64,000 nucleotides of DNA. Source: Armatimonadota bacterium (GTDB taxonomy: Bacteria; Armatimonadota; UBA5829; DTJY01). Location of the stretch: positions 37,896 through 101,895 of the forward strand of contig JARYMF010000007.1 in assembly GCA_029907255.1 (NCBI GenBank), given 5' to 3'. The notes under the pieces were generated by a model that did no database searches, was not told the DNA's origin, and worked only from the letters and a program-made list of their open reading frames with translations. The translations under genes were made by a program, and so were the position numbers. Numbering within the stretch: position 1 is the stretch's first letter; the number at the start of each line of letters is the position of its first letter. Of this stretch, positions 38,985 through 54,616 are shown piece by piece.

Positions 38985-39000
38985 TGGCATAGTAATTGCT
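38985..39000 (+). promoter_or_regulatory. Sigma-54 -24/-12 promoter upstream of the sugar-modification island
   Basis: cccTGGCATagtaaTTGCTgtatatt. Its flanks are almost identical to the flgB promoter. It ends 90 nt before the ATG at 39091. Confidence 0.55.
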
Positions 39001-39090
39001 GTATATTCAGTGCTCTGAATGCTATCGAAAAGTGCTGTTTGCATCGGGAATGATAACTAATACGTATGTGGGGAGATATTCTCCAGGCAA

Positions 39091-39585
39091 ATGGATATTA
39101 AGCGGCATTCTGATTACAAACCTATAAAAATTGCTTTCTTCGATGTTGACGGCGTCCTTACTGATGGAACAAAGTTCTATCACGAAGACGGCACAGTTTC
39201 TAAGCTTTTTCACGACCAAGATAGCACAGGCTTGCGAATGTTAACCCAAAATGGGGTGGAGGTCATTATCATTTCCGCCGATGAGCGCGTTAATAGAAAT
39301 TGGGCGGAACATCAAAGCCTGCCTTTCTATTGCACAGCTGACAAGGCAGAAACTGTAGCAGAGTTATTGGACAAGAAGGGATATGATGGCAAATCGGCTG
39401 CCTTCGTGGGAGATGACCTGAGGGATCTTGAAGCCATGAAGCTTGTTAGATATTCAATGGCTCCTGCAAATGCATCGCGGCAAGTTCGTCGAATAGCAAA
39501 GTTTCGGCTTCGCCGTGCTGGTGGCTCGGGTGCTGGGCGTGAGGCGGCAGAATTAATTCTGCGGATAAACCGTTTCATCTTTTAG
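39091..39585 (+). CDS. KdsC-family HAD sugar-phosphate phosphatase
   Basis: 164 aa. FFDVDGVLTDG and VGDDLRDLEAM, the C0 HAD KdsC/YrbI pattern. Confidence 0.75.
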   Translation: MDIKRHSDYKPIKIAFFDVDGVLTDGTKFYHEDGTVSKLFHDQDSTGLRMLTQNGVEVIIISADERVNRNWAEHQSLPFYCTADKAETVAELLDKKGYDGKSAAFVGDDLRDLEAMKLVRYSMAPANASRQVRRIAKFRLRRAGGSGAGREAAELILRINRFIF

Positions 39586-39651
39586 AAACGTTGCTTATTA
39601 TCGCAATTGAATGTGTGGCGTTCTAAATTTCACAAAGCAAAGGAGTAGCCG

Positions 39652-41421
39652 ATGAGAAGCGTAGTGTTGCTTGCAGCAGGAATGGGGACAAGGCTTGGTT
39701 CAATGACAGAAAAGTTGCCTAAATGCCTTATTCCCTTTAATGGCAAAACGCTTCTAGAATACACCATCGAGAAGCTCCGACGCTTTAACTTTGATAATAT
39801 CGTGGTCGTTGCTGGTTATCGCCATGACCAAGTGCGCCGAATTGTTCCGGATATCTTGGTGAACGAGGATTATGCTACTACTCAGCCTCCTTATTCCCTC
39901 CGCATTGGTCTTGAAAGAGTACCTCATGGACCTGTTCTTGTTATGGATGCAGATATTTATTTCGAGGATCGTGTGCTCGAGGAAATTCTCAAAATGGGGG
40001 ACAGGTCTTTTATTATTACCTCCACTGCCGAATCTAAGCTGGAGCCAGGCAGCCGCGTGAATGTTAAAGATGGCCGAGTCGTTCAAATTGGACGCTATAT
40101 TTCGCCGTTATTCCCCTGGCAAATCCACAGCGGGATTACTCATATTAGCTCGGCTGACTTTGATTACTACAAGTATCTTGCCAATCAGGATACGTTCCGC
40201 ACAACCGAAATGCATGTTCTTTTGAACGAATTGTGCAAGAAAAGACTAATTCTTGCAATCAATATGGAGAAAACACGGGTTGAACGAAAAACAGGGGACA
40301 TCTTTCTCGATGGAGGTTCATTTTCTGACGTATTAGTAACCGAGCAGGACAATATAATAAGGAAGGAAAGCGCGAAGGATACTGAAAGGCTAATAAACGA
40401 GATATATTATCTCCGTGACTTGCCTGAAGAACTTCGGCCTCATTTTACAGAGCTTTTGGATTACAACGTCGAAGGACCAGTTGTTTGGTATACGATGCCA
40501 CATTATCCTCAGCCTTCGCTTAAGAAGCTCATTCTTTCAGGCCAGTTTACCGCACTTGATGCAGTAGAAGTTCTTACTAGAATAGTTAAATTCCTGGTTG
40601 AAAAGGTTTATGTACTGCGTCGCATTGATGCCCCAGCAAGCTACACTGCGTCTGTGCACTTTAACAGGGTTGATGTTCGTCGTGAAATGGCTTTAAAGCA
40701 AGCCCCGATATTAAAACAGGTTTTTGGAGCAAAGAAGTTCATAATTAACGGCTTGGAGTATGAGAATCCATTTGACATAATCGAAAAGATTAGAAGCCGT
40801 GTAAAATTGGTGAGCACTCTTCAACCGCCGTATCTGTGCATGATTCACGGCGATCCACATTTCGATAACCTGCTGATTGACACGTCGCAGACGCCTTGTG
40901 GTTTCCGCTTGGTAGACCCGAAGGGTTTCTGTGCCGGAGACCCCATGTACGATATATCCAAGCTTTTCCACGATTTTCAAGGTCTTTATGACTTCATATA
41001 TGAATACATGTTTGATTTGAATTGGCAGGTGCAAGGTGATGTTTTTGAAGCCGAATTCCAAATTCACAACTGTGCTGCCCTTCGAGAGTTTCAAAAGATT
41101 AATGAATATTTTCCAACAATTGTTTCACAGTTTTTTGAGAGCGACCCAAACTGGTATTTGCGCATGAAATTCATCGAGGCAATTCATTTTAATTGCCTTC
41201 AGCCGTTTCATATTAAAGGAGATGGCATAGAGTCGAAAGCAATTGCCATGTTTCTTGTTGGCGTTCAGCAGATGAACAACTTTTGGGAAATGGTCCCACC
41301 CGACCTCAAGAAAGAAGATTTGAAGTATAAGTTGGTTAATATCAACACTATTGAGGACTTTACATACGCACGAAGCCTGTTTAAGTCGGATTTGAATAAA
41401 GCGCAAGCGAAAGCAGCTTGA
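39652..41421 (+). CDS. Bifunctional nucleotidyltransferase (LicC/RmlA-like) plus APH/choline-kinase-like kinase (LicA-like) fusion
   Basis: 589 aa. N-terminus LLAAGMGTRLG...KCLIPFNGKTLLEY. C-terminal Brenner motif HGDPHFDNLLID...RLVDP. Confidence 0.7.
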   Translation: MRSVVLLAAGMGTRLGSMTEKLPKCLIPFNGKTLLEYTIEKLRRFNFDNIVVVAGYRHDQVRRIVPDILVNEDYATTQPPYSLRIGLERVPHGPVLVMDADIYFEDRVLEEILKMGDRSFIITSTAESKLEPGSRVNVKDGRVVQIGRYISPLFPWQIHSGITHISSADFDYYKYLANQDTFRTTEMHVLLNELCKKRLILAINMEKTRVERKTGDIFLDGGSFSDVLVTEQDNIIRKESAKDTERLINEIYYLRDLPEELRPHFTELLDYNVEGPVVWYTMPHYPQPSLKKLILSGQFTALDAVEVLTRIVKFLVEKVYVLRRIDAPASYTASVHFNRVDVRREMALKQAPILKQVFGAKKFIINGLEYENPFDIIEKIRSRVKLVSTLQPPYLCMIHGDPHFDNLLIDTSQTPCGFRLVDPKGFCAGDPMYDISKLFHDFQGLYDFIYEYMFDLNWQVQGDVFEAEFQIHNCAALREFQKINEYFPTIVSQFFESDPNWYLRMKFIEAIHFNCLQPFHIKGDGIESKAIAMFLVGVQQMNNFWEMVPPDLKKEDLKYKLVNINTIEDFTYARSLFKSDLNKAQAKAA

Positions 41422-41439
41422 GAATACCAAAACGGAGAA

Positions 41440-44400
41440 GTGCGAATGGGAGAAGAAAAGGTTCTAGGAAGGCATAAGAGAAGAGTAGCTTGTTATGCGA
41501 CATTACCGTTCCAATTGCGGTCTCTCAAGCCAATTGCTGATGGATTTGAGGATTCACTTATTAGCTATAGTCATAAGGAGATAATGGATTGGCAGCCAGA
41601 TGTTATTATTACCGCTGATGTTTCTCAGCTGCCTCTTTTCCGTGAGTACTGCGATGCCCACAATGTCCTATTAATAGGTATGAGACATGGTCCAGCTACA
41701 AAATACACTTCTCCTGAAAAAGAATACTCCGTCGCAGACTATGTTTGCGCTAGCGACTGGGATGTGGACGATTTTACGAAGGCTGGCGTTAGACCGAAGC
41801 GAGGTTTCTTGCTTACCGGCAATCCTTGGGTAGACGACGTATTCAAAATTCCCGAGCGCAAACTTTGCAAGGATGCTCCTACAATTCTATTTGCTCCAAC
41901 CTATAATCCTGAGGTCAGTGCGGCTAGGTTTTTCGAAGATAAGCTAGCAAATCTTATCCACTCCGTATATCCAAGAAGTAAAATCATTATCAAACCACAT
42001 CCTGCTATTCTACAATACGACCATCCGTATGTTGTTCAACATCGTGAAATATTTCGTCGTTGGATTAGACAGTGGCTTGCTATATGCCAGGATTCAAATC
42101 TTGTTACATTAATCGATGACCCTGCAGCATCAATTAGTCAGTTCTTTCCAGATGCGGATATTTTAATTTCTGATGGCTCCTCGTTAATATTTGAGTTCAT
42201 GGTGCTAAATCGCCCAATTCTTTTGTATACGAGCCCTGAGAAAGTAGGAATATGGGAGTATGATTCAAGGGCGCTCGGCAATGCCTGGCGCGATGTGGGA
42301 ACGGAGTTCACTACGCAAGAGGAGTTCATTTTTGCTTTAAAGAACGCTTTTGTCAATCATTCCGAAATACAAAGCACAAAGCAGAAGCAGTACACGAATA
42401 TTCTTTATGGCAACTACCAAGATGGGCAATCAACAGAACGAGTAATCCAAAGCATCAGAAATCTGCCTTATCTGGATATAGCGCTTCTAACGGATAAAAA
42501 TGCTAGCCGTGTAAAAGAGTTCTACGAAGGGTTAAGCAATATTCTCAGAAATAGCACCATACATGTTCTTGAAGACATAGAACCTGAGGGAAAAGACTCT
42601 CAGCTAAATGCCTTTTTTGAGAAGAGCGATTCACAGTTTGTTATGGTGATTGATTATGACAGGGGAAAGAGGTTGCAATGTGCAGATTTCATTAGCCGTT
42701 CGCTACAAATTATGTCGCAAGACCCATCAGTTGCAGCTGCTGGCAGGTTGGTAGACGGGTGGGTTGAACGCAGTTTTGCAATTTTTGATAGAAAAAAGGT
42801 TTTGGACGTGGGAGGATTCTCCAAGTCAGATTCTGACTTATGCATGAGGCTTTTAGAGAAAGGTTGGAAAGTAATCTCTGCATGGGACGATAGACCGGTG
42901 ATTAGGTTTGAAAGTGGCTTTTATGACGAGGAACACGGCGTGCGATGGATGGCAGAAGAAGCAGTTATGCGCGTTGGATGGAGTGTGTGCGATGTTGAGA
43001 AATTCCCACCTTTATGCCTCACATTTGATGTTGTGTGTTCGAATTCCAAGCATTATCCAAACTTCCCATTTAGTCTAAAAATATACGATGGCGAAGCAAC
43101 GATTAAAGAGATTCGTTTTGACAAGTCCTATAAAAAAGAAAAAGTTGAGATTTTGCTTCCTTGTATTGAAGGGCCCCATACTCTTCGATTTATAAGCGAT
43201 GAGTCCTATGTTCCTCGCGAGATTGGCATAAACGGCGACCCCAGAAGGCTTTCAGTAATGATTAACAATGTAAAACTAAATGCACAAATCTTAAATAAAC
43301 ATATACAAACTGAATGCCCAGTTCGTTTAATTGCCTTCTACTTGCCGCAGTTTCATCCCATACCTGAAAACGATAAGTGGTGGGGAAAAGGCTTTACAGA
43401 TTGGGATAATGTTCGAAAAGCTAAACCATTATTCGAGGGACACTACCAACCACACATGCCGGCCGACCTAGGCTACTATGACCTTCGCAATCCTGAAGTT
43501 CGTGAAGCGCAAGCTGAAATGGCAAAAAAATATGGGATAGAAGGCTTTTGTTACTGGCATTATTGGTTTAATGGAAAAATGTTGCTTGAGAGACCTTTTA
43601 ATGAAGTGCTTGAGTCAGGAAAGCCTGATTTCCCCTTCTGTCTCGCATGGGCTAATGAAAATTGGACGCGAAATTGGGATGGGCACGAAAACCTAATTCT
43701 TCAGCCTCAAGAGTATGGTGGAGAGGCTGATGATTTTGCTCATTTCGAATGGTTGCTAAAGGCGTTTAGAGACCCAAGATACATTAAAGTAGACGGGAAG
43801 CCCTTATTCCTCATATACAGACCCATGGATATCCCAAATGTTGAAAACACGCTTGCATTGTGGCGGCAATTAGCTGGGAGTGCTGGGTTGCAAGGCTTGT
43901 ATGTAATCGCCATCAGAATTAGTCTCGACAAAACGGTAGACGGGTACTGGTTAAAGCAAGGTTTCGATGCCGAGCTATTATTTCAGCCATCTTTTGGAAG
44001 GCTATGGGATAAATATGGAGCGGGTGAAATCCCGGGGGTTCTTAATGAATATGGCGAAGGTGATGGCGAGCCAGGGCTTATTCTAAATTACAATGACGCA
44101 TGGCATGTAATGGCTAGCATGGAAGGCAACTGTTTGCGAACGGTAGTTCCTTCTTGGGATAACACTCCGCGTAGAAAATATGGTGCTTTCATTCTAAGAG
44201 ATTCTACGCCTAAGGCATATGGCGAGTGGCTCAAACTTGAAATTGAGCGTGTGAGCAGTAGACCTCCAGAACAGCGGATTGTCTTTATCAATGCATGGAA
44301 TGAATGGGGTGAGGGCAATCATCTGGAGCCAGATGTTCGCTTCGGGCACGGCTACCTCGAGGCGACCAAGCGAGCAATTGTTGGTGCTCAAACAGCAAGG

Positions 44401-46728
44401 CTTTATTCAATGGGTAAGTTGCACGAAGCTGTTTCGCTACTGGAAGAGCATATCATGGCAGACCAGAATGATGCTCAGGCATACAATGACCTTGGCGTCC
44501 TGTATTTCGAAAAAGGCGAAATTGAGAAAGCGCAATATTGTCTTGAGAAATCGCTTGCGCTAGATGAGACCGATGATACTGTTCGGAAAAACCTTGTGGA
44601 CCTTTATCTTGCTTGCGGGCAATCGGAAAGAGCAGCAAAGCTAACTGGCAATGCCCAAGAGGATTCTAGTTGTCCAGGCTGCAAGTCTGCCAGACCTAGG
44701 ATAATTGCAATACTTGCCGCTTACAATGAAGGCGACGTTATATACCATGTAATTCGGGATTTAATCGAGCAAGATATTGAAGTATACCTTCTAAACCATC
44801 ATTCAACAGACAATACAGTTGAAGAAGCATCAAAATGGTTGGGCAAGGGCCTTATTGGCATAGAATTGTTTCCTGAAGAGAGTGGTCTCGACATTCCAAA
44901 TGATGTGTTTGCTCTTCGCTATATTCTTATGCGCAAGGAGCAGCTTGTTCGACAATTTGGTCCCGGTTGGTACATCAATGCAGATGCCGATGAGTTCCGC
45001 GAGTCGCCTTGGCCTGGTTTGAATCTCCGTGAGGGAATCGAACGTGTAGACGCATTGGGATACAATACAATCAATTTTGCAATTTTTGATTTTAAGCCAA
45101 CTGATAATTCATTTGTGCCTGGCGATGATGTCCGCAAATACTTGACCGGTTACTCAGCACCTGCCGTTTCGTGGGACAAAATGCAGGCAAGGTGTTGGAA
45201 GTATTGGGGCCAGGATTTCAAACTTTGGCATACCGGTGGTCATCTAGTTCAATTCGAAGGCAGGCGCGTATTTCCTATCCCGTTTATCCTCAGGCATTAC
45301 CCAATTAGAAGCGAAGCACATGGAGAGACTAAGATCTTCAGCCAACGAAAAAACCGCTTTGATGAAAATGAAAAAGCCGCTAACTGGCATGTGCAGTATA
45401 ACGATATCACTCGGGAAAATAAGAGATTCCTATGGGACAAGTCTCAGCTTACCCAATACGACAGAGACGAAGTGTGCCGCCAAATCCATAAGAGATTCGC
45501 TGGTGTGGAACTATCCGAGGATAATAGCGAAATAAGGATTGCAATTGTAGTTCTAGTCCACAACCAGCTCGATGACACAAGAAAGTGCTTGGAAAGCATA
45601 AGGCGACATACAAATCTGCCGTATGAGCTTGTGGTGGTGGATAACGGCTCCACAGATGGCACGGAGCAGTATCTTGAAGAGATTAAGACCAAATGGAATT
45701 CAAAACATTGCAGGGCAATCAAAGTCATACGTCATGAGACTAATCTTGGTTATGCGGCAGGCAACAACTCAGGTATTTTGGCCTCTGAGGGTGCATATGT
45801 TGTTATTCTAAACAACGATACAGTAGTTACTCCTGGCTGGCTTGAGCGTCTGGTTAGATGTGCGGATGATGACCCACGCATTGGTATTGTTGGGCCTGTG
45901 AGCAATAATGTTTCAGGTTCTCAACAAGTCGAAAGCGTTGATTATGACCAGTCTACTCTAGAGGGGCTTGAGGAATTTGCCAAGAAGTGGGCTGCCTTGC
46001 ATGATAGGCAGATTAAACCAATAACGAGAGTTGTTGGTTTCTGTATGTTGATAAAACGTGAGGTAATCGAAACAATCGGCGGCTTTGACCCAAGATTTGG
46101 GATAGGTAACTTCGAGGATGATGATTTCTCAATTCGTGCTGCGATTGCAGGATATTATTCTGTGGTAGCGCAGGACTGTTTTATTCACCACACTGGCAGT
46201 CGAACTTTTGTTGGTCAAAAGATTAATCATGATGCACTCATGCGAAAAAATTGGGACCTTTTTAAAGCAAAGTGGGGTATACCAGCTGAGCTACCTTTAG
46301 GTATACCGTACAACATGTCGTTTCTTCTCAAGCAAGCGTTCAATCCGGAGCGCCATCGTTGCCCACTGGAAATCTCGAGCTCATCTATTGTTTGGTTTGT
46401 TGCACCAGAGTGGGATAAGCCCGAAACATGGTGTCCGGTAATTGAAGAATATTTGCGGTCAAATGTATCAAAAAAAGATGCGCTTCTTAGCATGTATGCT
46501 GGACCACGCACAGCAAGTGACTCAAGTGCGGCAGCCGAACTGGTGGCTGACTTTTTGGCAACGCTAGGTGTAGATGAGGGTCAAACTCCCGACATTGAAA
46601 TAACAGGGGAGCTTCCTAAAAACGGGAATGTGCAAATTATACTATCGAACGGCGGGTTGGACGAATTTTTGCAATTTCAGTACCCTGGCCGATGCATTCG
46701 CATAGATGAGTTGCGCAAGGCAGCGTAA
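41440..46728 (+). CDS. Giant multidomain transferase: TagB/TagF-like glycerophosphotransferase + GT-A-like + WbsX-family GT + TPR + GT2 + GT2
   Basis: 1762 aa. TagF motifs [10 protein letters not shown] and [24 protein letters not shown]. WbsX motif [28 protein letters not shown]. GT2 signatures AYNEGD..STDNT and [11 protein letters not shown]..NNDT. Confidence 0.8.
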   Translation: [1762 protein letters not shown]

Positions 46729-46778
46729 TTAGGTGTGACAAGGCAATAGTTGATCTGAGACGGAGGCGAGGTATTAAA

Positions 46779-49007
46779 ATGCCTGTACGAGTTACAAAAG
46801 CCATGACAGTCGGTAATGAGAAACAGTTAGGGCTTGATGCACTAAGGGAAAAACGGTGGGCAGAGGCAGCCGACTATCTGGAAAGAGCACTCAATGGTTC
46901 GCCAGCAGATGTTGAAATTATGAATGCACTGGCAGTTGCATATAGTGCACTGGGTAACGGCAAAGCTGCTCGCACAATACTTGGGCAGGCAGTTCGGGTG
47001 TCGCCAGAATATCCCGAAACATATAAAAATCTTGCGGTGCTACTTGCGCGCGAGGGCAGGGTACTGGAAGCGGCAGATAATGCTTGTCAAGCAGTCGAAC
47101 TTTCTCCTTCTAATCCAGAAAATGTCCGAGTGCTTCGAGAAGTACAAGAACTGGTTCGAAAGCTTTCACATTCGACAAAGAAAGAGAAGAAGTTAAACCG
47201 GCGTGTTGGAGGACCAACGCGCACCGAGATTAATGCGCGCCTTGCTAAGATTAATTCAGTTATTAAAAGGACACAGTCTATTAGCGAACAAGTGCCTACT
47301 CTTTCACTATGCATGATTGTAAAAAACGAAGAAGCAAATCTCGATTCTTGTCTTCGTAGCGTAAAAGGCATCGTGAATGAAATAATCATTGTTGATACCG
47401 GGTCAACAGACCGCACGCCAGAGATTGCACAATCTCATGGGGCAAAAGTTTATTATTTTCCATGGACTGATAACTATGCCGAAGCTCGGAATAAGTCACT
47501 AAGCTATGCAACTGGAACGTGGGTTCTCATACTGGATGCTGATGAGCAGCTTGATAAATCTGCAGGCCAAGTAATTCTTAAGGCAATAAAAGAACCCGTT
47601 GCTGATGCGTTTGCATTGCTTTTCCACAACTATATGTCCGAAAGCCAAGGTCCTGATATGTTTATCCATCGCACTTGCCGGTTGTTCCGCAACAAACCCG
47701 AATATCGGTATGAAGGACGAGTGCATGAACGCATAGTCCCTTCTATTGAGCGGTCGGGTGGAAAAATGGCATATCTCGATGCGGTAATCCACCATTTTGG
47801 CTATAGGCCTGCTGTAATGTTAGAACGTTGCAAGCACGAGCGATATATTCGCCTTCTTGAAGCAGACCTTGCGGAGAACCCAAATGATCCATATTGCCTC
47901 TACAATCTAGCTTCTGTTTACATAACAAAAGGCAACTATAAGGAGGCGCTTGGATATCTTAAGAAGGCTGAGGAATACATTACGCGAAGTCATGAATTTG
48001 CTGCTGCCACTTATTCGCATATGGCGCATGCCTTTTGTGAACTTGGGAGTCCAGAAGAGGCTATAAACGCATTGGAGCGGGCGCAAAACAAAGGCATATG
48101 CCATCCTGAATTGAATTTTGCGAAGGGGAATGCTCTTCTAGTCCTTGGGAGATATGCAGAAGCAATCACTGAGTTTGTGTCTGCTGTCCAGCTCGGCCAG
48201 AGTGGTGGATGGATTGGTGATCCTGGTGCATTTGGATATAAGGCATATTTTGGAATAGCTAGTGCTTGCATGGGATTGCAAGATTACCAGAAGGCTGCTG
48301 AATATGCCGAGCTGGTGGTAAAAGAAAACCCTGGTGACGCTAAGGCACATGAACTCCTAACCATTGCTTATCTTCGTTTAGGCAAGATGGCTCAGGCTGA
48401 AAAACATGGAAAGGAGTGGCTTCGATTATCGCCGGGTGATGCCCGGGCAGTGATAGGTTTTGCCCAGGTTTTGCAGGCAAGCGGTCAATTTAAAGAGGCA
48501 AGGAATCTCTATGTTTCGCTTCTAGATTTGGATTGCGAAACTGCTGAACTTCATTTCAACTTGGGTGTTTGTGCAGAGGCACTCAATGAGCTTGAAGATG
48601 CTAGTCGGCATTTTACCAGGGCAATTGAATTGCAGCCTGATTTTGTCGAGGCGCATACCAACTTAGGACGGTGTCACGCGAAACAAGGGCGAATCTCTGA
48701 AGCGCTTGCTTGTTTTGCACACGCTGTGGAAATAGACCCGGGGTATGCGAATGCTTATTTTAATGCAGGGGATATTCTGTATTCGGCTGGCCGTTATGAG
48801 GATGCTATAAATGTCTATCAGAATGGGTTAATGTGTTATCCAAATAATCCTGCTGCATTCCTTGCCATAGGAAATTGCTACTTCCGCATGGGGGCGTATG
48901 AAGCCGCTATTATGGGTTACCGCCAAGCTTTGGCTCTTCGCCCGAATTACCCTGAGGCCCAAGCTAATCTTTCTAAGGCTCTACAGCATGTAAAATCCTC
49001 AGTTTGA
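46779..49007 (+). CDS. TPR-GT2-TPR glycosyltransferase (GmaR-like flagellin glycosyltransferase candidate)
   Basis: 742 aa. Central GT2 domain LSLCMIVKNEEANLDSCLRSV...VDTGSTDRT...LDADE, flanked by TPR repeats. Confidence 0.75.
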   Translation: MPVRVTKAMTVGNEKQLGLDALREKRWAEAADYLERALNGSPADVEIMNALAVAYSALGNGKAARTILGQAVRVSPEYPETYKNLAVLLAREGRVLEAADNACQAVELSPSNPENVRVLREVQELVRKLSHSTKKEKKLNRRVGGPTRTEINARLAKINSVIKRTQSISEQVPTLSLCMIVKNEEANLDSCLRSVKGIVNEIIIVDTGSTDRTPEIAQSHGAKVYYFPWTDNYAEARNKSLSYATGTWVLILDADEQLDKSAGQVILKAIKEPVADAFALLFHNYMSESQGPDMFIHRTCRLFRNKPEYRYEGRVHERIVPSIERSGGKMAYLDAVIHHFGYRPAVMLERCKHERYIRLLEADLAENPNDPYCLYNLASVYITKGNYKEALGYLKKAEEYITRSHEFAAATYSHMAHAFCELGSPEEAINALERAQNKGICHPELNFAKGNALLVLGRYAEAITEFVSAVQLGQSGGWIGDPGAFGYKAYFGIASACMGLQDYQKAAEYAELVVKENPGDAKAHELLTIAYLRLGKMAQAEKHGKEWLRLSPGDARAVIGFAQVLQASGQFKEARNLYVSLLDLDCETAELHFNLGVCAEALNELEDASRHFTRAIELQPDFVEAHTNLGRCHAKQGRISEALACFAHAVEIDPGYANAYFNAGDILYSAGRYEDAINVYQNGLMCYPNNPAAFLAIGNCYFRMGAYEAAIMGYRQALALRPNYPEAQANLSKALQHVKSSV

Positions 49008-49075: not shown

Positions 49076-50026
49076 TTGACTAAAATGGAACGCCGCGAAT
49101 TAGGGAGAACAGGTATCTGGGTATCAAGGCTTGCCTTCGGGACGCTGCCTTTCAAACTCCACGAAATGCCAATTAGCGATGGCGCGGAACTTCTTGTTTC
49201 TGCGGCAGAAATGGGCATCGATTTTTTTGACCTCGCAGAAATTTATGGTTCATATCCTCACATGCAGAAAGCTCTTAAGCATATGGAGTTACCTCCTATA
49301 ATTGCCGCCAAGTCCATGGCAAAGGACGCAAGCTCCATGATTACTTCAATCAACACTGCGCTTCGAGAAATTGGCGTACCAAGGCTTGACATTTTCAAGC
49401 TTCATAACGTGGATAGCGTCGAGGACTTGAATAGTAGATTGCCTGCGTGGGAAGAGCTAGTTAAGGCTAAATCAAAGGGATTAATTCGTGCAATTGGTGT
49501 ATCTACACATTCCTGCCGCGTGTTAGAGGAAGTCATTAGTTGGCCCGAGTTGGACGTTGTTCTAGTGGTTTTTAATAGAGGTTTTAAGGGTGTTGTGGAA
49601 GGAACAATGGCAGAGATGCTGGATGGCATCAAGGCAGCCCATAGCGCTGGCAAGGGTGTCTACATTATGAAGGCACTTGGCGGTGGGCTACTGTACGCGA
49701 ATGCTAGGGAAGCTTTGGAGTTCGCATTTAGCGTTGAAGAAGCTGATTCGGTTGCCGTTGGAATGCATAGCCTCCAAGAAGTAATATACAATGTGGCTGT
49801 GTGCAAGGGCGAGGCTGTTCCGCCTTCCGTAGAAACGAGTCTAAAGCAGCGTAAAAGACGCTGGCATGTCCGTCCATTCTGCCGAGGTTGTGGGGCTTGT
49901 ATATCCGCTTGCCGTTATGGAGCACTCCGCATGGGCGAGAAAACGCCAGTTGCGGATGAGGAGAAGTGCATACTTTGTGGATATTGCGGCTTCGAATGTC
50001 CTGCGATGGCGATTAAAATATTGTAG
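49076..50026 (+). CDS. Aldo/keto reductase fused to a C-terminal 2x[4Fe-4S] ferredoxin domain
   Basis: 316 aa. AKR core (LGRTGIWVSRLAFGT). C-terminus CRGCGACISAC...CILCGYCGFECP. Confidence 0.7.
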   Translation: MTKMERRELGRTGIWVSRLAFGTLPFKLHEMPISDGAELLVSAAEMGIDFFDLAEIYGSYPHMQKALKHMELPPIIAAKSMAKDASSMITSINTALREIGVPRLDIFKLHNVDSVEDLNSRLPAWEELVKAKSKGLIRAIGVSTHSCRVLEEVISWPELDVVLVVFNRGFKGVVEGTMAEMLDGIKAAHSAGKGVYIMKALGGGLLYANAREALEFAFSVEEADSVAVGMHSLQEVIYNVAVCKGEAVPPSVETSLKQRKRRWHVRPFCRGCGACISACRYGALRMGEKTPVADEEKCILCGYCGFECPAMAIKIL

Positions 50027-50182
50027 GCGACTAATTTTTAGAAAGGTCTTTTTTGCAAACAAGACAAAGGACTAAAAGCATCCAGTGGCATGCGCTCCTG
50101 CTTTGTCTTCGTTTAACTTGGTAAGGACCGATAAACTCGTCATTTTGGAGGACACTTGTTATAATAAGCAAGTCATATTGGG

Positions 50183-51010
50183 TTGGAGATGCCAATGAAG
50201 TTTTCAATTTGCAACGAGCTTTTTGAAAATTGGCCTATAGAGAAAGTATTCGTTACTGCTGCCGAAATCGGATATGATGGCGTTGAGATTGCCCCGTTCA
50301 CTCTCGCAACATCGGTTTACGAAATCATAGATGCACGACGCCGAGAGATTGCTCGAGCTGCCGCTGATGCTGGTGTTGAGATTGTTGGGCTTCACTGGTT
50401 GCTGGTGAAACCAGAAGGATTATATATCAATCATCCAGATGCAGATGTTCGCAAGCGAACGCGCGACTACCTTGATGCGCTGATTTGCTTGTGCAGTGAT
50501 CTCGGTGGTCGCGTTCTCATTTTCGGCTCGCCGAAGCAGAGGAACGTGCACGAAAGCCTAACTTACGAGCAGGCTTGGAATTACGCATGCGAAACATTTT
50601 CGCATTGTGCGGAAAAGGCACGGGAAAATGATGTCTACCTTTGCATAGAGGCGCTACCTCCGCGGGAGACCAACTTCATAAACACAGTTGAGGAAGCGCT
50701 GGCAATGGTTCGTGCAGTTGGTAAGCCTAACTTTCGCACAATGGTTGATGTAAAAAGCATGTGCTCCGAGGCTCGGTCAATTCCGGAGATTGTTTGTAGC
50801 GCAGGTGAACATATCATGCACGTTCATGCTAATGACGCAAGTGGACGAGGGCCAGGGATGGGCGATACAGATTTTCATGTTGTGTCGTCAGCCCTTCGCG
50901 AAATCAGGTATAATGGCTATGTCTCGGTAGAGGTTTTCGATTACAAGCCCGACCCAATAACAATTGCAAAGCAAAGTTTAGCTTATTTGAGGGAAACGTT
51001 TGGTTGTTAG
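50183..51010 (+). CDS. Sugar phosphate isomerase/epimerase (xylose-isomerase-like TIM barrel)
   Basis: 275 aa with AP-endonuclease-2/IolE-type barrel motifs. The first codon is TTG; the ATG at 50195 is probably the real start. A TGnTATAAT extended -10 sits at 50157-50165. Confidence 0.7.
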   Translation: MEMPMKFSICNELFENWPIEKVFVTAAEIGYDGVEIAPFTLATSVYEIIDARRREIARAAADAGVEIVGLHWLLVKPEGLYINHPDADVRKRTRDYLDALICLCSDLGGRVLIFGSPKQRNVHESLTYEQAWNYACETFSHCAEKARENDVYLCIEALPPRETNFINTVEEALAMVRAVGKPNFRTMVDVKSMCSEARSIPEIVCSAGEHIMHVHANDASGRGPGMGDTDFHVVSSALREIRYNGYVSVEVFDYKPDPITIAKQSLAYLRETFGC

Positions 51011-51081
51011 ATATTCGCTGAGGATTTTTCTTTTCCAGTAATAGAAGAGAACAAAAAACTTAATTTTGAGATGATTCAGCC

Positions 51082-52461
51082 ATGACTATCAGATTTTTCA
51101 ATACATTAACCCGCGAAAAAGACGAATTTCGAGCAATAAATGACATGAAGGTTGGACTCTATACCTGTGGGCCAACCGTATATGACTTCGCCCATATTGG
51201 AAACTGGCGCACTTACTTATTCGAGGATATTCTTCGGCGACACCTCGAATACCGCGGTTTCGAAGTAGCACACGTGATGAATATCACGGATGTTGACGAC
51301 AAGACAATACGCGGTGCTAGGGAAAAAGGCATAAGTCTCAACGAGTATACTCTTCCATTTATTGAGGCTTTTTATGAGGACAGGGACCATCTAAACATCG
51401 AGCCGGCGCATGTATACCCCAGGGCGACCGAGCACATTCAGGAGATGGTTGCCCTGATAAAGAAGCTTCTTGACAAAGGTATAGCATATAAAGCTGAAGA
51501 CGGCTCGATTTACTACGACATCTCAAAATTTCCTGGCTACGGCAAACTTTCTCATTTTAAGATAGGAGAGTTGAAAGCCGGCGCACGGGTTAGCTCCGAT
51601 GAATATGAAAAAGAGCAGGTTTCCGATTTTGCTCTTTGGAAGGCTTGGGATGAGGCAGACGGCAATGTATATTGGGACACTGAGCTTGGAAGAGGCCGAC
51701 CCGGATGGCATATCGAATGTTCAGCAATGAGCATGAAGTATTTGGGCGAAACATTTGACATCCATACTGGTGGCGTTGATAACATCTTTCCACATCATGA
51801 AAACGAAATAGCCCAGTCTGAGGCTGCAACCGGAAAACCATTCGTCAACTATTGGCTTCACTCAGAGCACCTCCTCGTAGAAAATCGCAAAATGAGCAAA
51901 TCACTTGGCAATTTCTACACGCTCAGAGATGTAATGGCTCGAGGGTATGATCCACTTGCGTTTAGGTATTTGGTCCTTGGTGCACATTATCGGTCAAAAT
52001 TGAATTTCACTTGGCAAGCGCTGGATGCGGCTGAAACAGCGCTTGAGAATTTATATGAATTCGTAGCGCGGCTCGACAGGGAAAACCCAACTGGACTTGA
52101 TGACGCGGTCGCCCGCTGGACTAGTGCGTTTGATGAAGCAATGGATGACGATTTGAATACGCCTGTTGCACTGGCTGCGGTGTTTAGTTTGATTAAAGAG
52201 GTCAATATTCACGGCCGTGGTGGTCGAGAAGTCTTCGCTGCAATGGTGAACTTTGACCGAATTCTAGGTCTCAAGCTTTCCGAGCGAGGGGTGCCTTTTG
52301 AAGTGGAAATACCCTCGGATATAATGAGACTCGTCGAAGAACGTCAGAAGGCAAGAAAGGCACGCGATTTTGCTACCGCCGATCGCATCCGCGATGAGAT
52401 TCTAGCTGCCGGATACATAGTAGAGGATACCCCCGAGGGTCCCAGAGTAAAGAAGAAATAG
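51082..52461 (+). CDS. cysS: Cysteinyl-tRNA synthetase (class I; HIGN variant of HIGH)
   Basis: 459 aa. CGPTVYDFAHIGN, Zn/Cys-site residues (GWHIECSAM, HTGGVDNIFPHHENEIAQSEA) and KMSKS are present. The C-terminal anticodon-binding part is present. Confidence 0.8.
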   Translation: MTIRFFNTLTREKDEFRAINDMKVGLYTCGPTVYDFAHIGNWRTYLFEDILRRHLEYRGFEVAHVMNITDVDDKTIRGAREKGISLNEYTLPFIEAFYEDRDHLNIEPAHVYPRATEHIQEMVALIKKLLDKGIAYKAEDGSIYYDISKFPGYGKLSHFKIGELKAGARVSSDEYEKEQVSDFALWKAWDEADGNVYWDTELGRGRPGWHIECSAMSMKYLGETFDIHTGGVDNIFPHHENEIAQSEAATGKPFVNYWLHSEHLLVENRKMSKSLGNFYTLRDVMARGYDPLAFRYLVLGAHYRSKLNFTWQALDAAETALENLYEFVARLDRENPTGLDDAVARWTSAFDEAMDDDLNTPVALAAVFSLIKEVNIHGRGGREVFAAMVNFDRILGLKLSERGVPFEVEIPSDIMRLVEERQKARKARDFATADRIRDEILAAGYIVEDTPEGPRVKKK

Positions 52462-52527
52462 GGGGTTTGCAATTTTTAACCATGGGCTCCAAGCGATAAT
52501 AGAGCAGTAAGTTTGAGGAGGCTAATT

Positions 52528-53229
52528 ATGCGAATTTTAGCAGTTGGGGCGCATCCCGACGATATAGAAATCCTATGCGCTGGCACACTTGCTAAGTATG
52601 CAAGCCAAGGCCATGACATTATTATGTGCCATGCATGTATTGGAGATAAAGGGCATTTCCACATTCCAAATGATGAGCTTGCGAAAATTAGGCGCAAAGA
52701 GGCTCAGCTATCGGCAAGCAGGATTGGAGCCGAAAGCATATCGCTGGGCATACCAGACTGTGAAATTTTCAATAATCGAGAGACTTTGGCGGTATTCATT
52801 GATATGATTCGCGTAACTAAGCCCGACTTGATAATTACGCACTCGCCAACTGACTATATGCCTGATCATTGTGTAGTTAGTGGCTTGGTTTATGATGCAT
52901 CCTTCCATGCCTCGTTGCCTAATTGGAAGACAGAGCACGAATATCACGACAAAGTTCCACCGGTTATCTATATGGATAACGTTGCTGGGGTGGACTTTGA
53001 ACCAGGCGAATATGTGGATATTACGGATTTTATTGAAAAAAAGAAGGAAATGATGATGTGTCATCAGAGTCAAGTCGTCTGGCTAAAAGAGCACGATAAC
53101 CTGGATGTTATTCAGTTTATAGAAGATTGCGCTAAGTTCCGAGGATGGCAGTGTGGTGTTAAATACGCAGAAGCTTTCCGTACTGTCAACCGCTGGCCTA
53201 GATTGAGAACTCAGCGGTTGCTGCCTTGA
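52528..53229 (+). CDS. PIG-L/LmbE-family N-acetylglucosaminyl deacetylase
   Basis: ATG at 52528 with GAGGAGG 6 nt upstream. MRILAVGAHPDDIEILCAGTLAKY...HSPTDYMPDH. Confidence 0.8.
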   Translation: MRILAVGAHPDDIEILCAGTLAKYASQGHDIIMCHACIGDKGHFHIPNDELAKIRRKEAQLSASRIGAESISLGIPDCEIFNNRETLAVFIDMIRVTKPDLIITHSPTDYMPDHCVVSGLVYDASFHASLPNWKTEHEYHDKVPPVIYMDNVAGVDFEPGEYVDITDFIEKKKEMMMCHQSQVVWLKEHDNLDVIQFIEDCAKFRGWQCGVKYAEAFRTVNRWPRLRTQRLLP

Positions 53230-53307
53230 TTTTATACGCTTGGAAAGATCTCTTTCCAAAAATCCAATCATTTTATTCGTTTTAATTTCGATATTGGAGG
53301 TACAGCT

Positions 53308-54573
53308 ATGTCAGCAGATAAACTAGCAATCAATGGTGGAACGCCTGTTAGAACAGCTCCATTTCCACCATGGCCCTATTTTTGGGATGATATGAAAGCT
53401 GCTGTAAAGGAAGTTCTGGATAGCGGAAAAGTCAACTATTGGACAGGCTTTCGCGGAATGGAGTTCCAGAAGCGATATGCTGATTACTGCGGAGTTAAGC
53501 ATGCAATAATGTTGAATTCTGGCACGAGTGCACTGCATGTAGCATATGCCGCCGCAGGAATTGGCCCCGGAGACGAAGTCATAGTTCCATCTTATACCTT
53601 TATTGCCACTGCAGCTGCTGTTTTGCACCAGAATGCTATCCCGATTTTCGCTGATGTCGAGGAAAAGACGTGGAACATTGATCCAAAGTCGGTTGAAGCC
53701 CTCATTACTGAGCGCACGAAGGCTATTGTGCCAGTTCATCTTCATGGTCATCCGGCAGACATGGACGCAATTAATGCAATTGCCGCAAAGCACGGATTAG
53801 TGGTGATAGAGGATGCCGCTCAGGCACACGGCGCTGAGTATAAGGGGAAGAAAATAGGTTCTCTTGGAGATTTGGCAGCATTCAGCTTTTGCCAGGACAA
53901 AATTATAACAACCGGCGGCGAAGGCGGGGCGGTGACTACTGACAACGATGATTATGCTGAAATTGCGCGCAGTTTCAAAGACCATGGTTATTGGGAAGAA
54001 GAGCGTAAGGACCTTCTCCAGATGGAGGCACTCTATCCATATATCCACCATCGGATGGGATTTAACTACCGCATGACTGAAATGCAAACAGTTATTGGAA
54101 TGGCGGCCCTTGAGCGTCTTGATGAATGGGTTGAAAAGCGACGGGCTAATGCTCATTTCCTAACTAAGCGGTTGTTAGAGATTCCACAGGTCGAGCCGCC
54201 GTATGAGTCTCCGGATGTAAAGCATGCGTTCTATAAGTATGCTTTCAAGATAAAACCTGAGATGCTGAATTGCACGCGAGACGAGTTCATCCATGCCCTA
54301 CGTGCTGAAGGCATTCCGTGTGTTGCTGGTGTTCCACCGGAAAACTACAAAGAAGAAGTTTTCCTAAAAATGGTTGGTTATGGAAATACCAAATGCCCGT
54401 TTAAGTGCCCGTGGTATAAAGGCAATGTAGATTACAGCAAGGTTGACTGCCCAACTGCACGAAGGATTGGCATGCAGACCATTTGGTTGTTAGTACATCC
54501 AACGATAGATGAGCAATGTCTTGAAGACATGGCAACAGCTGTCGCTAAGGTTGCGACGGCTTATGCGAAGTAA
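53308..54573 (+). CDS. DegT/DnrJ/EryC1/StrS-family PLP-dependent aminotransferase
   Basis: 421 aa. NSGTSALHVAYAAAGIGPGDEVIVPSYTFIATAAAV...SFCQDK (PLP-binding Lys). The long C-terminus has Cys pairs. Confidence 0.9.
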   Translation: MSADKLAINGGTPVRTAPFPPWPYFWDDMKAAVKEVLDSGKVNYWTGFRGMEFQKRYADYCGVKHAIMLNSGTSALHVAYAAAGIGPGDEVIVPSYTFIATAAAVLHQNAIPIFADVEEKTWNIDPKSVEALITERTKAIVPVHLHGHPADMDAINAIAAKHGLVVIEDAAQAHGAEYKGKKIGSLGDLAAFSFCQDKIITTGGEGGAVTTDNDDYAEIARSFKDHGYWEEERKDLLQMEALYPYIHHRMGFNYRMTEMQTVIGMAALERLDEWVEKRRANAHFLTKRLLEIPQVEPPYESPDVKHAFYKYAFKIKPEMLNCTRDEFIHALRAEGIPCVAGVPPENYKEEVFLKMVGYGNTKCPFKCPWYKGNVDYSKVDCPTARRIGMQTIWLLVHPTIDEQCLEDMATAVAKVATAYAK

Positions 54574-54587
54574 ATGGAGTTAAAAGA

Positions 54588-54616
54588 AGCGGGGGTTTAA
54601 CCCCCGCTATTTTTTA
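54588..54616 (+). terminator. Rho-independent terminator after the DegT gene
   Basis: agcggggg-tttaa-cccccgct followed by aTTTTTTaa. A second imperfect hairpin follows at 54618-54655. Confidence 0.7.

What the first reader, a model, noticed from the sequence alone, without database searches (positions are those of the whole stretch)
38985..54616. 15.5-kb flagellum-adjacent island predicted to make and transfer a complex glycan or phospho-substituent, probably onto the short flagellin
Nine co-directional genes lie between a sigma-54 promoter and a strong terminator. They encode a KdsC-type phosphatase, a kinase+nucleotidyltransferase fusion, a 1762-aa multi-transferase, a GmaR-like TPR-GT2, an AKR-ferredoxin fusion, a TIM-barrel isomerase, a CysRS, an LmbE deacetylase and a DegT aminotransferase. 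The island abuts flgF and shares the flagellar promoter type. The flagellin is a 271-aa D0/D1-only protein with a Ser/Thr-rich central stretch. This is the usual setting for flagellin O-glycosylation, but the enzyme set is not a pseudaminic/legionaminic acid pathway: no PseB/PseC/NeuB-like genes are visible.
Basis: partly seen in the sequence, partly recalled or inferred. Interest (0 to 1): 0.8.

Follow-up and report, generated by a model that had tools for sequence, protein, structure and literature searches.

The report
Flagellin sugar-and-phosphate tagging gene module
Only the first four of the nine flagged genes form a flagellum-linked module, related to a known Pseudomonas and Clostridioides system and most likely coating flagellin with sugars capped by a phosphate-linked small molecule; the other five are an unrelated neighbouring block that includes the cell's ordinary cysteine-tRNA synthetase.

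Summary
All nine genes, their domains, the exact sigma-54 promoter (38985-39000), the strong terminator (54588-54608), the flgF neighbour and the 271-aa flagellin are present.

The "15.5-kb island", however, is two units.

Unit 1 (39091-49007) has four genes: a KdsC-type HAD phosphatase, a LicC-like cytidylyltransferase fused to an APH-fold kinase, a 1762-aa multi-transferase and a TPR-GT2.
- The multi-transferase's N-terminal TagF-like domain is 50% identical (E 3e-106) to that of P. aeruginosa FgtA/PA1091, the flagellin glycan phosphotransferase.
- The TPR-GT2's best catalytic match among solved structures is GmaR, the Listeria flagellin GlcNAc transferase.
- The multi-transferase/TPR-GT2 pair recurs in four other loci. 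Two lie divergent from flgF. All three loci whose downstream DNA is visible run into unrelated genes after the TPR-GT2.
- The donor-synthesis genes upstream of the pair differ between loci.

Unit 2 (AKR-ferredoxin, TIM barrel, CysRS, LmbE, DegT) is conserved as a block in a relative that has no flagellar or transferase genes beside it.
- There it continues past the position of the window's terminator.
- It has its own conserved extended -10 promoter.
- Its CysRS looks like the housekeeping enzyme.

Verdict: a new variant of the known FgtA/Fta-type flagellin modification, in Armatimonadota, with an undetermined phospho-linked substituent. Interest is moderate.

The parts
38985..39000 (+). Sigma-54-type promoter (TGGCAT-N5-TTGCT) upstream of the HAD gene.
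   Evidence: Exact consensus match. The window holds 4 exact matches against 0.16 expected, and the other three precede flgB, the flgE region and flhB.
39091..39585 (+). KdsC/YrbI-type HAD-IIIA phosphatase (164 aa), part of the donor cassette.
   Evidence: Pfam and NCBIfam. Solved KdsC/YrbI and KDN-9-P phosphatases match at E 1e-22 to 1e-20. The DVDG nucleophile motif is visible. A 66% identical copy lies next to the NT/kinase ortholog in L005. No similarity to the PA1089 HAD.
39652..41421 (+). Fusion of a LicC-like cytidylyltransferase (residues 1-~200) and an APH-fold small-molecule kinase (residues ~215-589).
   Evidence: Pfam NTP_transf_3 at 3e-17 and APH at 2e-5. Best solved structure is LicC 1jyk at E 5e-12. 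The NT domain is 30% identical to PA1090. The kinase model has pLDDT 83 and an APH fold. The HGDxHxDN motif is invariant in the family.
41440..46728 (+). 1762-aa FgtA-like multi-transferase. A public gene call for the same contig starts it two codons downstream, at 41446 (1760 aa).
   Evidence: Pfam. Full-length relatives at 52-58% identity. Paired with the TPR-GT2 in L099, L100, L101 and L102.
41482..42525 (+). TagF-like phosphotransferase domain (residues 15-362) of the multi-transferase.
   Evidence: Pfam Glyphos_transf, 58 bits, E 1e-15. 50% identity and E 3e-106 to residues 173-521 of P. aeruginosa PA1091. 67 positions are invariant across 13 sequences, including FAPTxNP and IKPHP.
43327..44367 (+). 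WbsX-type glycosyltransferase-like domain (residues 630-976).
   Evidence: Pfam PF14307, 462 bits, full length of the profile.
44392..44643 (+). TPR repeats (residues ~985-1068) inside the multi-transferase.
   Evidence: Pfam TPR families. Matches to solved TPR proteins.
45538..46209 (+). GT2 glycosyltransferase domain (residues 1367-1590).
   Evidence: Pfam Glycos_transf_2, E 7e-41. Solved GT2 enzymes match.
46779..49007 (+). TPR-GT2-TPR protein (742 aa), the candidate flagellin-priming glycosyltransferase. Its GT2 domain (residues 172-366) lies at 47292-47876.
   Evidence: Pfam. GT2 domain against solved GmaR 22ao at E 1.5e-29, then SunS at 2e-23. Full-length orthologs at 51-54% identity directly follow the multi-transferase in L099 and L100.
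29475..30290 (-). 271-aa flagellin, the presumed substrate (inferred).
   Evidence: Flagellin_N and Flagellin_C only. Ser+Thr is 23-27% in residues 131-200.
801..2213 (+). rpoN (sigma-54), encoded inside the flagellar cluster. Listed as context for the promoter class.
   Evidence: Pfam Sigma54_CBD, Sigma54_DBD and Sigma54_AID.
49076..50026 (+). AKR-ferredoxin fusion. NOT part of the module; it is the first gene of the separately conserved block.
   Evidence: 70% identical in L088, where it follows a ceramidase-like gene. Also present in L009. Absent after the TPR-GT2 in L099, L100 and L102.
50137..50165 (+). Sigma-70-like promoter with an extended -10 (TGTTATAAT) upstream of the TIM-barrel gene.
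   Evidence: Promoter scan. TGnTATAAT is conserved at the same place in L088 and L009.
50183..54573 (+). TIM-barrel epimerase/isomerase, CysRS (51082-52461), LmbE deacetylase and DegT aminotransferase. A separate unit, NOT part of the module.
   Evidence: Same order at 67-89% identity in L088 and L009, continuing into GFO, Zn-ADH and an ABC transporter. CysRS passes the cysS equivalog cut-off and not the MshC one. It is 81% and 71% identical to CysRS genes near or next to panB-panC in L008 and L010.
54588..54608 (+). Intrinsic terminator that ends the TIM-to-DegT unit.
   Evidence: 9-bp stem with 7 G-C pairs, followed by ATTTTTT.

Best explanation
The flagged region is two adjacent units.

Unit 1 (38985-49007) is a sigma-54-driven, flagellum-associated module of four genes. 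I infer that it O-glycosylates the short flagellin and then caps the glycan with a phosphodiester-linked small molecule. This is the logic shown experimentally for C. difficile Type A (FgtA plus FtaABCD) and P. aeruginosa b-type (PA1088-PA1091).

Proposed steps, all inferred from homology:
1. The APH-fold kinase domain phosphorylates a hydroxylated small molecule X. The KdsC-type phosphatase may supply X from a phosphorylated precursor.
2. The LicC-like domain of the same protein joins X-phosphate to CTP, giving CDP-X.
3. The GmaR-like TPR-GT2 puts the first sugar on flagellin Ser/Thr, using its TPR repeats to hold the protein substrate.
4. The WbsX and GT2 domains of the 1762-aa enzyme extend the glycan.
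5. The N-terminal TagF-like domain of that enzyme transfers X-phosphate from CDP-X to a sugar hydroxyl, releasing CMP.

X is not identified. The donor genes differ between related loci, so the substituent is probably variable.

Unit 2 (49076-54573) is AKR-ferredoxin, then TIM barrel, housekeeping CysRS, LmbE and DegT. It is a separately conserved block with its own sigma-70-type promoter. In relatives it runs on into GFO/IDH/MocA, Zn-ADH and sugar ABC-transporter genes. It is not needed for the flagellar module. Its function is unresolved; amino-sugar or cyclitol metabolism is the simplest guess.
For: Shown here:
- Domain content.
- TagF-like domain: 50% identity and E 3e-106 to a P. aeruginosa 1420-aa protein. 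That protein's locus reads flgK, flgL, methyltransferase, HAD, NT, this gene, an unannotated 309-aa ORF, fliC, flaG, fliD, which is the PA1088-PA1091 arrangement. It is 52% identical to a P. straminea protein named FgtA. 67 positions are invariant, including FAPTxNP and IKPHP.
- The NT domain's best solved match is LicC, and it is 30% identical to PA1090.
- Kinase fold and catalytic motif.
- The TPR-GT2's best catalytic match among solved structures is GmaR, at E 1.5e-29.
- Synteny: L100 and L102 are relatives (for L100, FlgG 86% and FlgI 77% identical). Both read flgF divergent from an Asn-synthase-like gene, an NT, the multi-transferase (52% in L100, 49% in L102), the TPR-GT2 (51% in L100), and then molybdopterin oxidoreductase and hydrogenase genes.
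- L099 and L101 read NT, methyltransferase, multi-transferase, TPR-GT2. L099 then continues with unrelated genes; the L101 contig ends at the TPR-GT2.
- The HAD plus NT/kinase pair is 66% and 74% identical in L005, next to flgK-flgL, although FlgL there is only 27% identical.
- The promoter class is shared with three flagellar operons.
- Unit 2 is independent.

From the literature:
- FtaD/CD0244 and PA1091 are CDP-(methyl)threonine phosphotransferases acting on flagellin glycans, and PA1091 fuses a glycosyltransferase with the phosphotransferase (bioRxiv 10.64898/2026.02.12.704994; PMC10714395; PMC11833859).
Against: - There is no biochemical or expression data for this uncultured organism. 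Flagellin as the target is inferred only from position, promoter type and homology.
- L099 and L101 show no flagellar genes in the flanks that are visible.
- There is no strong terminator between the TPR-GT2 and the AKR-ferredoxin gene. Only a 4-bp hairpin plus a T run is present, and the fold z-score is -0.6. Read-through from the sigma-54 promoter into unit 2 is therefore possible.
- The HAD is KdsC-type rather than the PSP/ThrH type of PA1089/CD0241, and no methyltransferase is present. The donor chemistry therefore differs from the known systems and is unknown.
- In L100 and L102 the matching intergenic region has a sigma-28-like site rather than a sigma-54 site.
Confidence: 0.62

Rival explanations
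1. All nine genes form one operon that together makes and transfers a complex flagellin glycan. DegT, LmbE, the TIM barrel and the AKR-ferredoxin build an unusual amino sugar, and the CysRS plays a dedicated role.
For: The genes are co-directional with short gaps, and there is one strong terminator at the far end. No strong terminator follows the TPR-GT2. DegT and LmbE are typical sugar-tailoring families.
Against: - The 3' block is conserved without the 5' genes or any flagellar genes in L088, where it extends beyond the position of the window's terminator.
- The 5' pair occurs without the 3' block in L099, L100 and L102; the L101 contig ends at the TPR-GT2.
- A conserved extended -10 promoter precedes the TIM gene.
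- The CysRS passes the cysS equivalog cut-off. It is 81% identical to the CysRS of a sister genome, where panB-panC lie about 2 kb upstream, and 71% identical to one directly beside panB-panC.
Confidence: 0.1
2. The four-gene module is real but targets something other than flagellin, for example an S-layer protein, a pilin, or a teichoic-acid-like or capsular polymer.
For: TagF-like, WbsX and GT2 domains are typical of cell-surface polymer synthesis. L099 and L101 carry the module with no flagellar genes in the visible flanks. The more distant NT/kinase relatives sit beside LicD genes on phage-like contigs.
Against: - The TagF-like domain is closest to the FgtA clade of flagellin enzymes, not to teichoic acid polymerases. 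It is 50% identical to PA1091, while TarL reaches only E 0.08.
- The TPR-GT2's best catalytic match is GmaR.
- Three of five loci lie directly divergent from flgF.
- Flagellar-type promoters precede the module.
- No membrane-spanning polymerase, flippase or export genes are present in the module.
Confidence: 0.2
3. The adjacent LmbE and CysRS genes work as in mycothiol synthesis (MshB deacetylase, then the MshC cysteine ligase). They would make a cysteinyl amino sugar, either a low-molecular-weight thiol or a thiol-bearing glycan.
For: The LmbE-CysRS adjacency is conserved in L009 and L088. The LmbE is closest to BshB1, at 130 bits in NCBIfam and E 3e-22 against solved structure 6p2t.
Against: - The CysRS scores 504 bits on the cysS equivalog (cut-off 340) but only 258 on MshC (cut-off 485). 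It keeps the DALR and anticodon-binding domains.
- Each of the three related MAGs appears once among the 80 loci kept (of 599 matching stretches), and in two of them the CysRS has no LmbE beside it.
- The LmbE is about equally similar to diacetylchitobiose deacetylases, and the block leads into sugar-uptake genes.
Confidence: 0.05

Closest known systems
P. aeruginosa b-type flagellin glycosylation, PA1088-PA1091 (FgtA = PA1091) (PMC11833859)
   Same: - A TagF-like phosphotransferase domain fused to glycosyltransferase domains in one large protein; that domain is 50% identical over about 350 residues.
- A neighbouring small cytidylyltransferase homolog, 30% identical to PA1090.
- A HAD-fold gene in the cassette.
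- Location inside the flagellar cluster.
   Different: - This protein has extra WbsX, TPR and second GT2 modules (1762 aa against 1420 aa), and a separate GmaR-like TPR-GT2 follows it.
- The cytidylyltransferase is fused to an APH-fold kinase.
- The HAD is KdsC-type, not PSP/ThrH-type, and shows no similarity to PA1089.
- There is no methyltransferase.
- The donor is therefore probably not CDP-N,N-dimethylthreonine.
C. difficile Type A flagellin modification, FgtA (CD0240) plus FtaABCD (CD0241-CD0244) (PMC10714395; bioRxiv 10.64898/2026.02.12.704994)
   Same: The same pathway logic: a HAD-fold enzyme, a LicC-like cytidylyltransferase that makes a CDP-activated small molecule, a TagF-like phosphotransferase that installs it on an O-linked sugar of flagellin, and a separate priming glycosyltransferase.
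   Different: - In C. difficile the genes are separate and the glycan is a single GlcNAc.
- Phosphothreonine there is proposed to come from a phosphoserine:threonine phosphotransferase, not from a kinase.
- I made no direct sequence comparison with the C. difficile proteins.
Listeria monocytogenes GmaR, flagellin O-GlcNAc transferase and MogR anti-repressor (PMC9638930)
   Same: A GT2 catalytic domain combined with TPR repeats. GmaR is the best catalytic-domain match among solved structures, at E 1.5e-29 over residues 172-366.
   Different: - This protein has TPR blocks on both sides of the GT2 domain and is 742 aa long.
- No MogR-like repressor gene is seen in the window.
- A regulatory role is untested.
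LicA/LicC/LicD phosphocholine decoration, and the fused LicCA of Treponema denticola (the fusion is recalled from my own knowledge)
   Same: The same domain order, cytidylyltransferase then APH/choline-kinase-fold kinase. LicC is the best solved match of the NT domain. More distant family members sit next to LicD genes.
   Different: - The kinase domain matches Pfam APH only weakly (25 bits), and its fold matches are aminoglycoside kinases at low TM-scores.
- The transferase here is TagF-type, not LicD.
- Choline as the substrate is unproven.

Membership tests
FgtA/PA1091-type flagellin glycan phosphotransferase-glycosyltransferase | TagF-like (Glyphos_transf) catalytic domain with the family's conserved motifs | tested here: met
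   Pfam at 58 bits, E 1e-15. 50% identity and E 3e-106 to the P. aeruginosa protein. 67 invariant positions, including FAPTxNP and IKPHP.
FgtA/PA1091-type flagellin glycan phosphotransferase-glycosyltransferase | Phosphotransferase fused to GT2 glycosyltransferase domain(s) in one polypeptide | tested here: met
   GT2 at residues 1367-1590 (E 7e-41) and WbsX at 630-976, in the same ORF.
FgtA/PA1091-type flagellin glycan phosphotransferase-glycosyltransferase | Gene lies within or beside the flagellar gene cluster | tested here: met
   Divergent from flgF in the window, L100 and L102. Not seen in the visible flanks of L099 and L101.
Fta/PA1088-1090 donor pathway (CDP-(methyl)threonine) | LicC-like or IspD-like cytidylyltransferase adjacent to the phosphotransferase | tested here: met
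   NT domain: LicC at E 5e-12; 30% identical to PA1090 at E 2e-10.
Fta/PA1088-1090 donor pathway (CDP-(methyl)threonine) | PSP/ThrH-like HAD phosphotransferase (CD0241/PA1089) | tested here: not met
   The HAD here is KdsC/YrbI-type. BLASTP against the PA1089 ortholog gives no hit at E 1e-3.
Fta/PA1088-1090 donor pathway (CDP-(methyl)threonine) | SAM-dependent N-methyltransferase (CD0243/PA1088) | tested here: not met
   No methyltransferase domain occurs in any of the nine genes. One is present in L099 and L101.
Fta/PA1088-1090 donor pathway (CDP-(methyl)threonine) | Phosphodiester-linked substituent found on the flagellin glycan | not testable with these tools
   This needs mass spectrometry of flagellin from an uncultured organism.
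GmaR-type flagellin O-glycosyltransferase | GT2 catalytic domain homologous to GmaR, combined with TPR repeats | tested here: met
   Solved GmaR 22ao at E 1.5e-29 over residues 172-366. TPR families at E 5e-56. The DAD motif is visible.
GmaR-type flagellin O-glycosyltransferase | Transfers GlcNAc to flagellin and binds the MogR repressor | not testable with these tools
   No assay is possible. No MogR-like gene was noticed in the window.
Pseudaminic/legionaminic acid flagellin glycosylation | PseB/LegB dehydratase, PseC/LegC aminotransferase, PseI/NeuB synthase and a Maf- or FlmG-type transferase | tested here: not met
   DegT scores 266 bits against the PseC cut-off of 423. No PseB or NeuB family was found among the scanned ORFs of the window.
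Mycothiol-type MshB/MshC pair | CysRS paralog that lacks tRNA-binding features and meets the MshC model | tested here: not met
   MshC at 258 bits against a cut-off of 485. The cysS equivalog at 504 against 340. DALR and CysS_C domains are present. 81% identical to a CysRS in a housekeeping context.

The most novel reading that the evidence does not exclude
The KdsC-type phosphatase and the cytidylyltransferase-kinase fusion make a CDP-activated metabolite that has not been described and is not CDP-threonine. Related lineages swap this donor cassette in front of a conserved FgtA-like multi-transferase/TPR-GT2 pair to vary the phospho-linked cap on their flagellin glycans. The alternatives seen are Asn-synthase-like plus NT, and NT plus methyltransferase. 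Some cassettes would be exchanged with phages, which carry the same fusion next to LicD transferases.
Probability: 0.35. Interest if true: 0.6.

Novelty: new variant of a known kind. Interest (0 to 1): 0.45.

Why it matters
Phosphodiester-linked caps on flagellin glycans are so far worked out only in C. difficile and P. aeruginosa, and the CDP-amino-acid donors were found only recently.

This locus shows the same enzyme family in a deep-branching, uncultured phylum (Armatimonadota). Here it is built into a much larger multi-transferase and paired with a GmaR-like enzyme. The donor-synthesis cassettes in front of the pair are interchangeable.

That gives a concrete set of candidate enzymes for finding new CDP-activated metabolites. 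The cytidylyltransferase-kinase fusion family alone has over 100 uncharacterised clusters. It also offers a natural experiment in how flagellar surface chemistry diversifies.

The analysis removes one tempting but wrong lead: the CysRS, LmbE and DegT genes are neighbours, not part of the pathway.

Tried and rejected
1. Mycothiol-like LmbE+CysRS chemistry. I considered this first and rejected it. The CysRS meets the cysS cut-off and not the MshC cut-off. It is 81% and 71% identical to CysRS genes that have no LmbE beside them and sit near or next to panB-panC in sister genomes.

2. Pairwise search of the TagF-like domain against solved structures. It gave only marginal hits: TarL at E 0.08 and Cps3D at 0.25. 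The family assignment rests on Pfam and on FgtA homology instead.

3. Identifying the kinase's substrate by structure. The model is good (pLDDT 83), but Foldseek finds only aminoglycoside kinases, at TM-scores of about 0.35-0.59. The substrate is not resolved.

4. My first impression that the NT/kinase family is tiny (12 hits). The exhaustive search corrected this: 128 clusters at E<=1e-30, mostly with the same fusion length.

5. A sigma-54 site in front of the module in L100. None was found. A sigma-28-like site is present there and in L102.

6. A strict sigma-28 pattern in the window. No match. Only a CCGATAA element lies upstream of the flagellin gene.

7. A terminator between the TPR-GT2 and the AKR-ferredoxin gene. 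Only a weak hairpin is present, and its fold is not better than shuffled sequence.

8. A literature search for Armatimonadota flagellar glycosylation. Nothing was found.

9. The protein after the NT/kinase gene in L005. It has a sulfatase-fold domain and only marginal N-terminal similarity to the TagF-like domain (E 0.006). It is not an ortholog of the multi-transferase.

Full report
**Source.** The 589-aa protein of the window is identical to an NCBI protein from an Armatimonadota MAG. The same region lies on a 112-kb assembled contig. The organism is uncultured.

**Checking the observation.**
- a KdsC/YrbI-type HAD phosphatase;
- an NTP-transferase/APH-kinase fusion;
- a 1762-aa protein with TagF-like (Glyphos_transf), WbsX, TPR and GT2 domains;
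- a TPR-GT2-TPR protein;
- an AKR with two 4Fe-4S motifs;
- a xylose-isomerase-like TIM barrel;
- a CysRS;
- an LmbE/PIG-L deacetylase;
- a DegT aminotransferase.

The promoter at 38985-39000 matches TGGCAY-N5-TTGCW exactly. The window has four exact matches against 0.16 expected. The other three sit just upstream of flgB, the flgE region and flhB. The sigma-54 gene itself is at 801-2213.

The terminator at 54588-54608 is strong.

Upstream, on the other strand, are flgF, flgG, flgA, flgH, flgI, flgJ, flgM, flgN, flgK, flgL, fliW, the 271-aa flagellin and fliD. The first 26 kb are flagellar genes as well. No PseB- or NeuB-type gene is in the window. The flagellin's central stretch is only modestly enriched in Ser/Thr.

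**The island is two units.** I used the AKR-ferredoxin protein, which sits at the junction, to fetch related metagenome loci. I used the CysRS to fetch related genomes.

Evidence from the 3' genes:
- In L088 (a 113-kb contig) the order AKR-Fdx, TIM, CysRS, LmbE, DegT, GFO, GFO, Zn-ADH, SBP-permease is kept at 70-89% identity. The block therefore runs past the position of the window's terminator.
- The 10 kb upstream in L088 encode argG, argH, an RsbW-like kinase, a SpoIIE-GAF phosphatase, a 1078-aa protein with no Pfam match and a ceramidase-like protein. There are no flagellar or transferase genes.
- L009 (an Armatimonadota MAG) keeps AKR-Fdx through GFO.
- An extended -10 element (TGnTATAAT) upstream of the TIM gene is conserved in the window, L088 and L009.
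- The CysRS passes the cysS equivalog cut-off (504 against 340 bits) and not the MshC one. It has the anticodon-binding domains.
- The CysRS is 81% identical to that of L008 (panB, panC, TIM, RadC, an unannotated ORF, CysRS) and 71% identical to that of L010 (panB, panC, CysRS). It is 50-59% identical to the CysRS of many phyla, including Chlamydia.
- Each of the three related MAGs appears only once among the 80 loci kept.
- It is therefore the housekeeping enzyme. A housekeeping enzyme would not be expected to depend on a flagellar sigma-54 promoter.

**The four 5' genes are an FgtA-type flagellin module.** A homology search with the 1762-aa protein found full-length relatives at 49-58% identity. 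It also found many Pseudomonas, Pantoea and Erwinia proteins that match only its first ~350 residues, at 47-53% identity. Some of those are named "flagellar glycosyl transferase FgtA".

The P. aeruginosa hit lies in the order flgK, flgL, methyltransferase, HAD, NT, this gene, an unannotated 309-aa ORF, fliC, flaG, fliD, fliS, fliT, fleQ. That is the PA1088-PA1091 locus. An alignment of 13 such domains has 67 invariant positions, including FAPTxNP and IKPHP.

According to the literature:
- PA1091 combines a GT2 glycosyltransferase with the TagF-like phosphotransferase. That phosphotransferase is postulated to install N,N-dimethyl-phosphothreonine on the flagellin deoxyhexose.
- Its C. difficile counterpart, FtaD, was reconstituted in vitro with CDP-N-methylthreonine as donor (PMC11833859; PMC10714395; bioRxiv 10.64898/2026.02.12.704994).

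Other matches of the module's proteins:
- The GT2 domain of the TPR-GT2 matches solved GmaR (the Listeria flagellin GlcNAc transferase) at E 1.5e-29, and next the peptide glycosyltransferase SunS.
- The NT domain's best solved match is LicC, the CTP:phosphocholine cytidylyltransferase. It is 30% identical to PA1090.
- The C-terminal half of that protein models confidently (pLDDT 83) as an APH-fold kinase with an invariant HGDxHxDN motif. Its substrate cannot be read from the fold.

**Synteny of the module.** The multi-transferase is directly followed by an ortholog of the TPR-GT2 in four other loci.
- L100 and L102 are relatives (for L100, FlgG 86% and FlgI 77% identical). They share the window's flagellar gene order and have the module divergent from flgF. 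After the TPR-GT2 come molybdopterin oxidoreductase and hydrogenase genes.
- L099 and L101 have NT, methyltransferase, multi-transferase and TPR-GT2, with no flagellar genes in the visible flanks.
- The genes in front of the multi-transferase differ: HAD plus NT-kinase in the window, Asn-synthase-like plus NT in L100 and L102, and NT plus methyltransferase in L099 and L101.
- The window's HAD and NT-kinase pair is 66% and 74% identical to a pair in L005. There it sits next to flgK-flgL and other TPR-glycosyltransferase genes, although FlgL is only 27% identical. This suggests the cassette moved between flagellated lineages.

**Mechanism (inferred).**
1. The kinase phosphorylates a small hydroxylated molecule X.
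2. The LicC-like domain makes CDP-X.
3. The GmaR-like TPR-GT2 primes flagellin Ser/Thr with a sugar.
4. The WbsX and GT2 domains extend the glycan.
5. The TagF-like domain caps it with X-phosphate.

The KdsC-type phosphatase may release X from a phosphorylated precursor. It is not the PSP/ThrH-type HAD of the known systems. No methyltransferase is present. X is therefore probably not N-methylthreonine.

**Limits.**
- There are no expression or chemical data.
- There is no strong terminator between the TPR-GT2 and the AKR-ferredoxin gene, so read-through is possible.
- Two of the five loci are not visibly next to flagellar genes.
- In L100 and L102 the promoter region looks sigma-28-like rather than sigma-54-like.

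**Novelty.** This is a new variant of a known kind. The enzyme family and pathway logic are known from Pseudomonas and Clostridioides. Three things are new: the phylum, the expanded architecture with a separate GmaR-like enzyme, and the kinase-based donor cassette, which appears to be exchangeable. I found no paper on Armatimonadota flagellar glycosylation.

Noticed in passing
L002:1-2400; L003:6264-6854; L007:7700-13756: Relatives of the NT/kinase fusion at 45-60% identity sit on phage-like contigs. These carry a major head protein, a head-maturation protease and a baseplate-wedge-like protein. The fusion lies next to LicD-type phosphotransferases, GT2 genes and PIG-L genes. The kinase domain matches phrog_21938 (unknown function) at E 2e-38. 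These phages may carry glycan phospho-decoration cassettes.
   Followed up: partly
L002:315-2213: The major-head-protein gene appears interrupted. A 52-aa gpT-like ORF comes first, then a 280-aa LAGLIDADG/HNH endonuclease ORF, then the rest of the head protein. This would fit a homing endonuclease or intron inside the capsid gene.
   Followed up: no
window 801-2213, 2328-2343, 11656-11671, 20466-20481: The sigma-54 gene rpoN lies at the head of the flagellar cluster, preceded by a stand-alone response-regulator receiver gene (386-781). Exact sigma-54 promoter matches precede flgB, the flgE region and flhB. A FliA sigma-28 gene is at 25107-25898.
   Followed up: partly
window 50157-50165; L088:~11020; L009:~340: An extended -10 element (TGnTATAAT) upstream of the TIM-barrel gene is conserved in three relatives. 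It marks an independent promoter for TIM, CysRS, LmbE and DegT.
   Followed up: yes
window 56718-61190: Two unusual fusions occur in an ABC sugar-uptake system. One is a solute-binding protein fused to a permease (848 aa). The other is a GH42-like domain fused to a permease (617 aa). The first is conserved at 86% identity in L088.
   Followed up: no
L100:7877-7999; L102:7854-8007: In the two relatives with the module next to flgF, the intergenic region carries a sigma-28-like CTAAAG-N15/16-CTCC(G/A)ATAAT instead of the window's sigma-54 site. The promoter class of the module seems to have been exchanged within the flagellar hierarchy.
   Followed up: partly
window 30291-30640 (- strand): The flagellin gene has a leader of about 120 nt downstream of a CCGATAA (sigma-28 -10-like) element. 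GGA motifs lie around the ribosome-binding site, and fliW is the next gene upstream. This is the usual setting for FliW/CsrA control of flagellin translation. No csrA gene was looked for.
   Followed up: no
window 23837-24865: A YcgR-like protein (PilZN plus PilZ, 342 aa) lies between flhA and fliA, where flhF/flhG are often found. No flhF or flhG was seen among the ORFs I scanned in the window.
   Followed up: no
L100:7999-9920; L102:8007-9977: In these loci the donor cassette is an asparagine-synthase-like protein (an adenylating amidotransferase family) plus a 261-aa nucleotidyltransferase. This hints at an amide- or amino-acid-derived phospho-substituent different from the window's.
   Followed up: no
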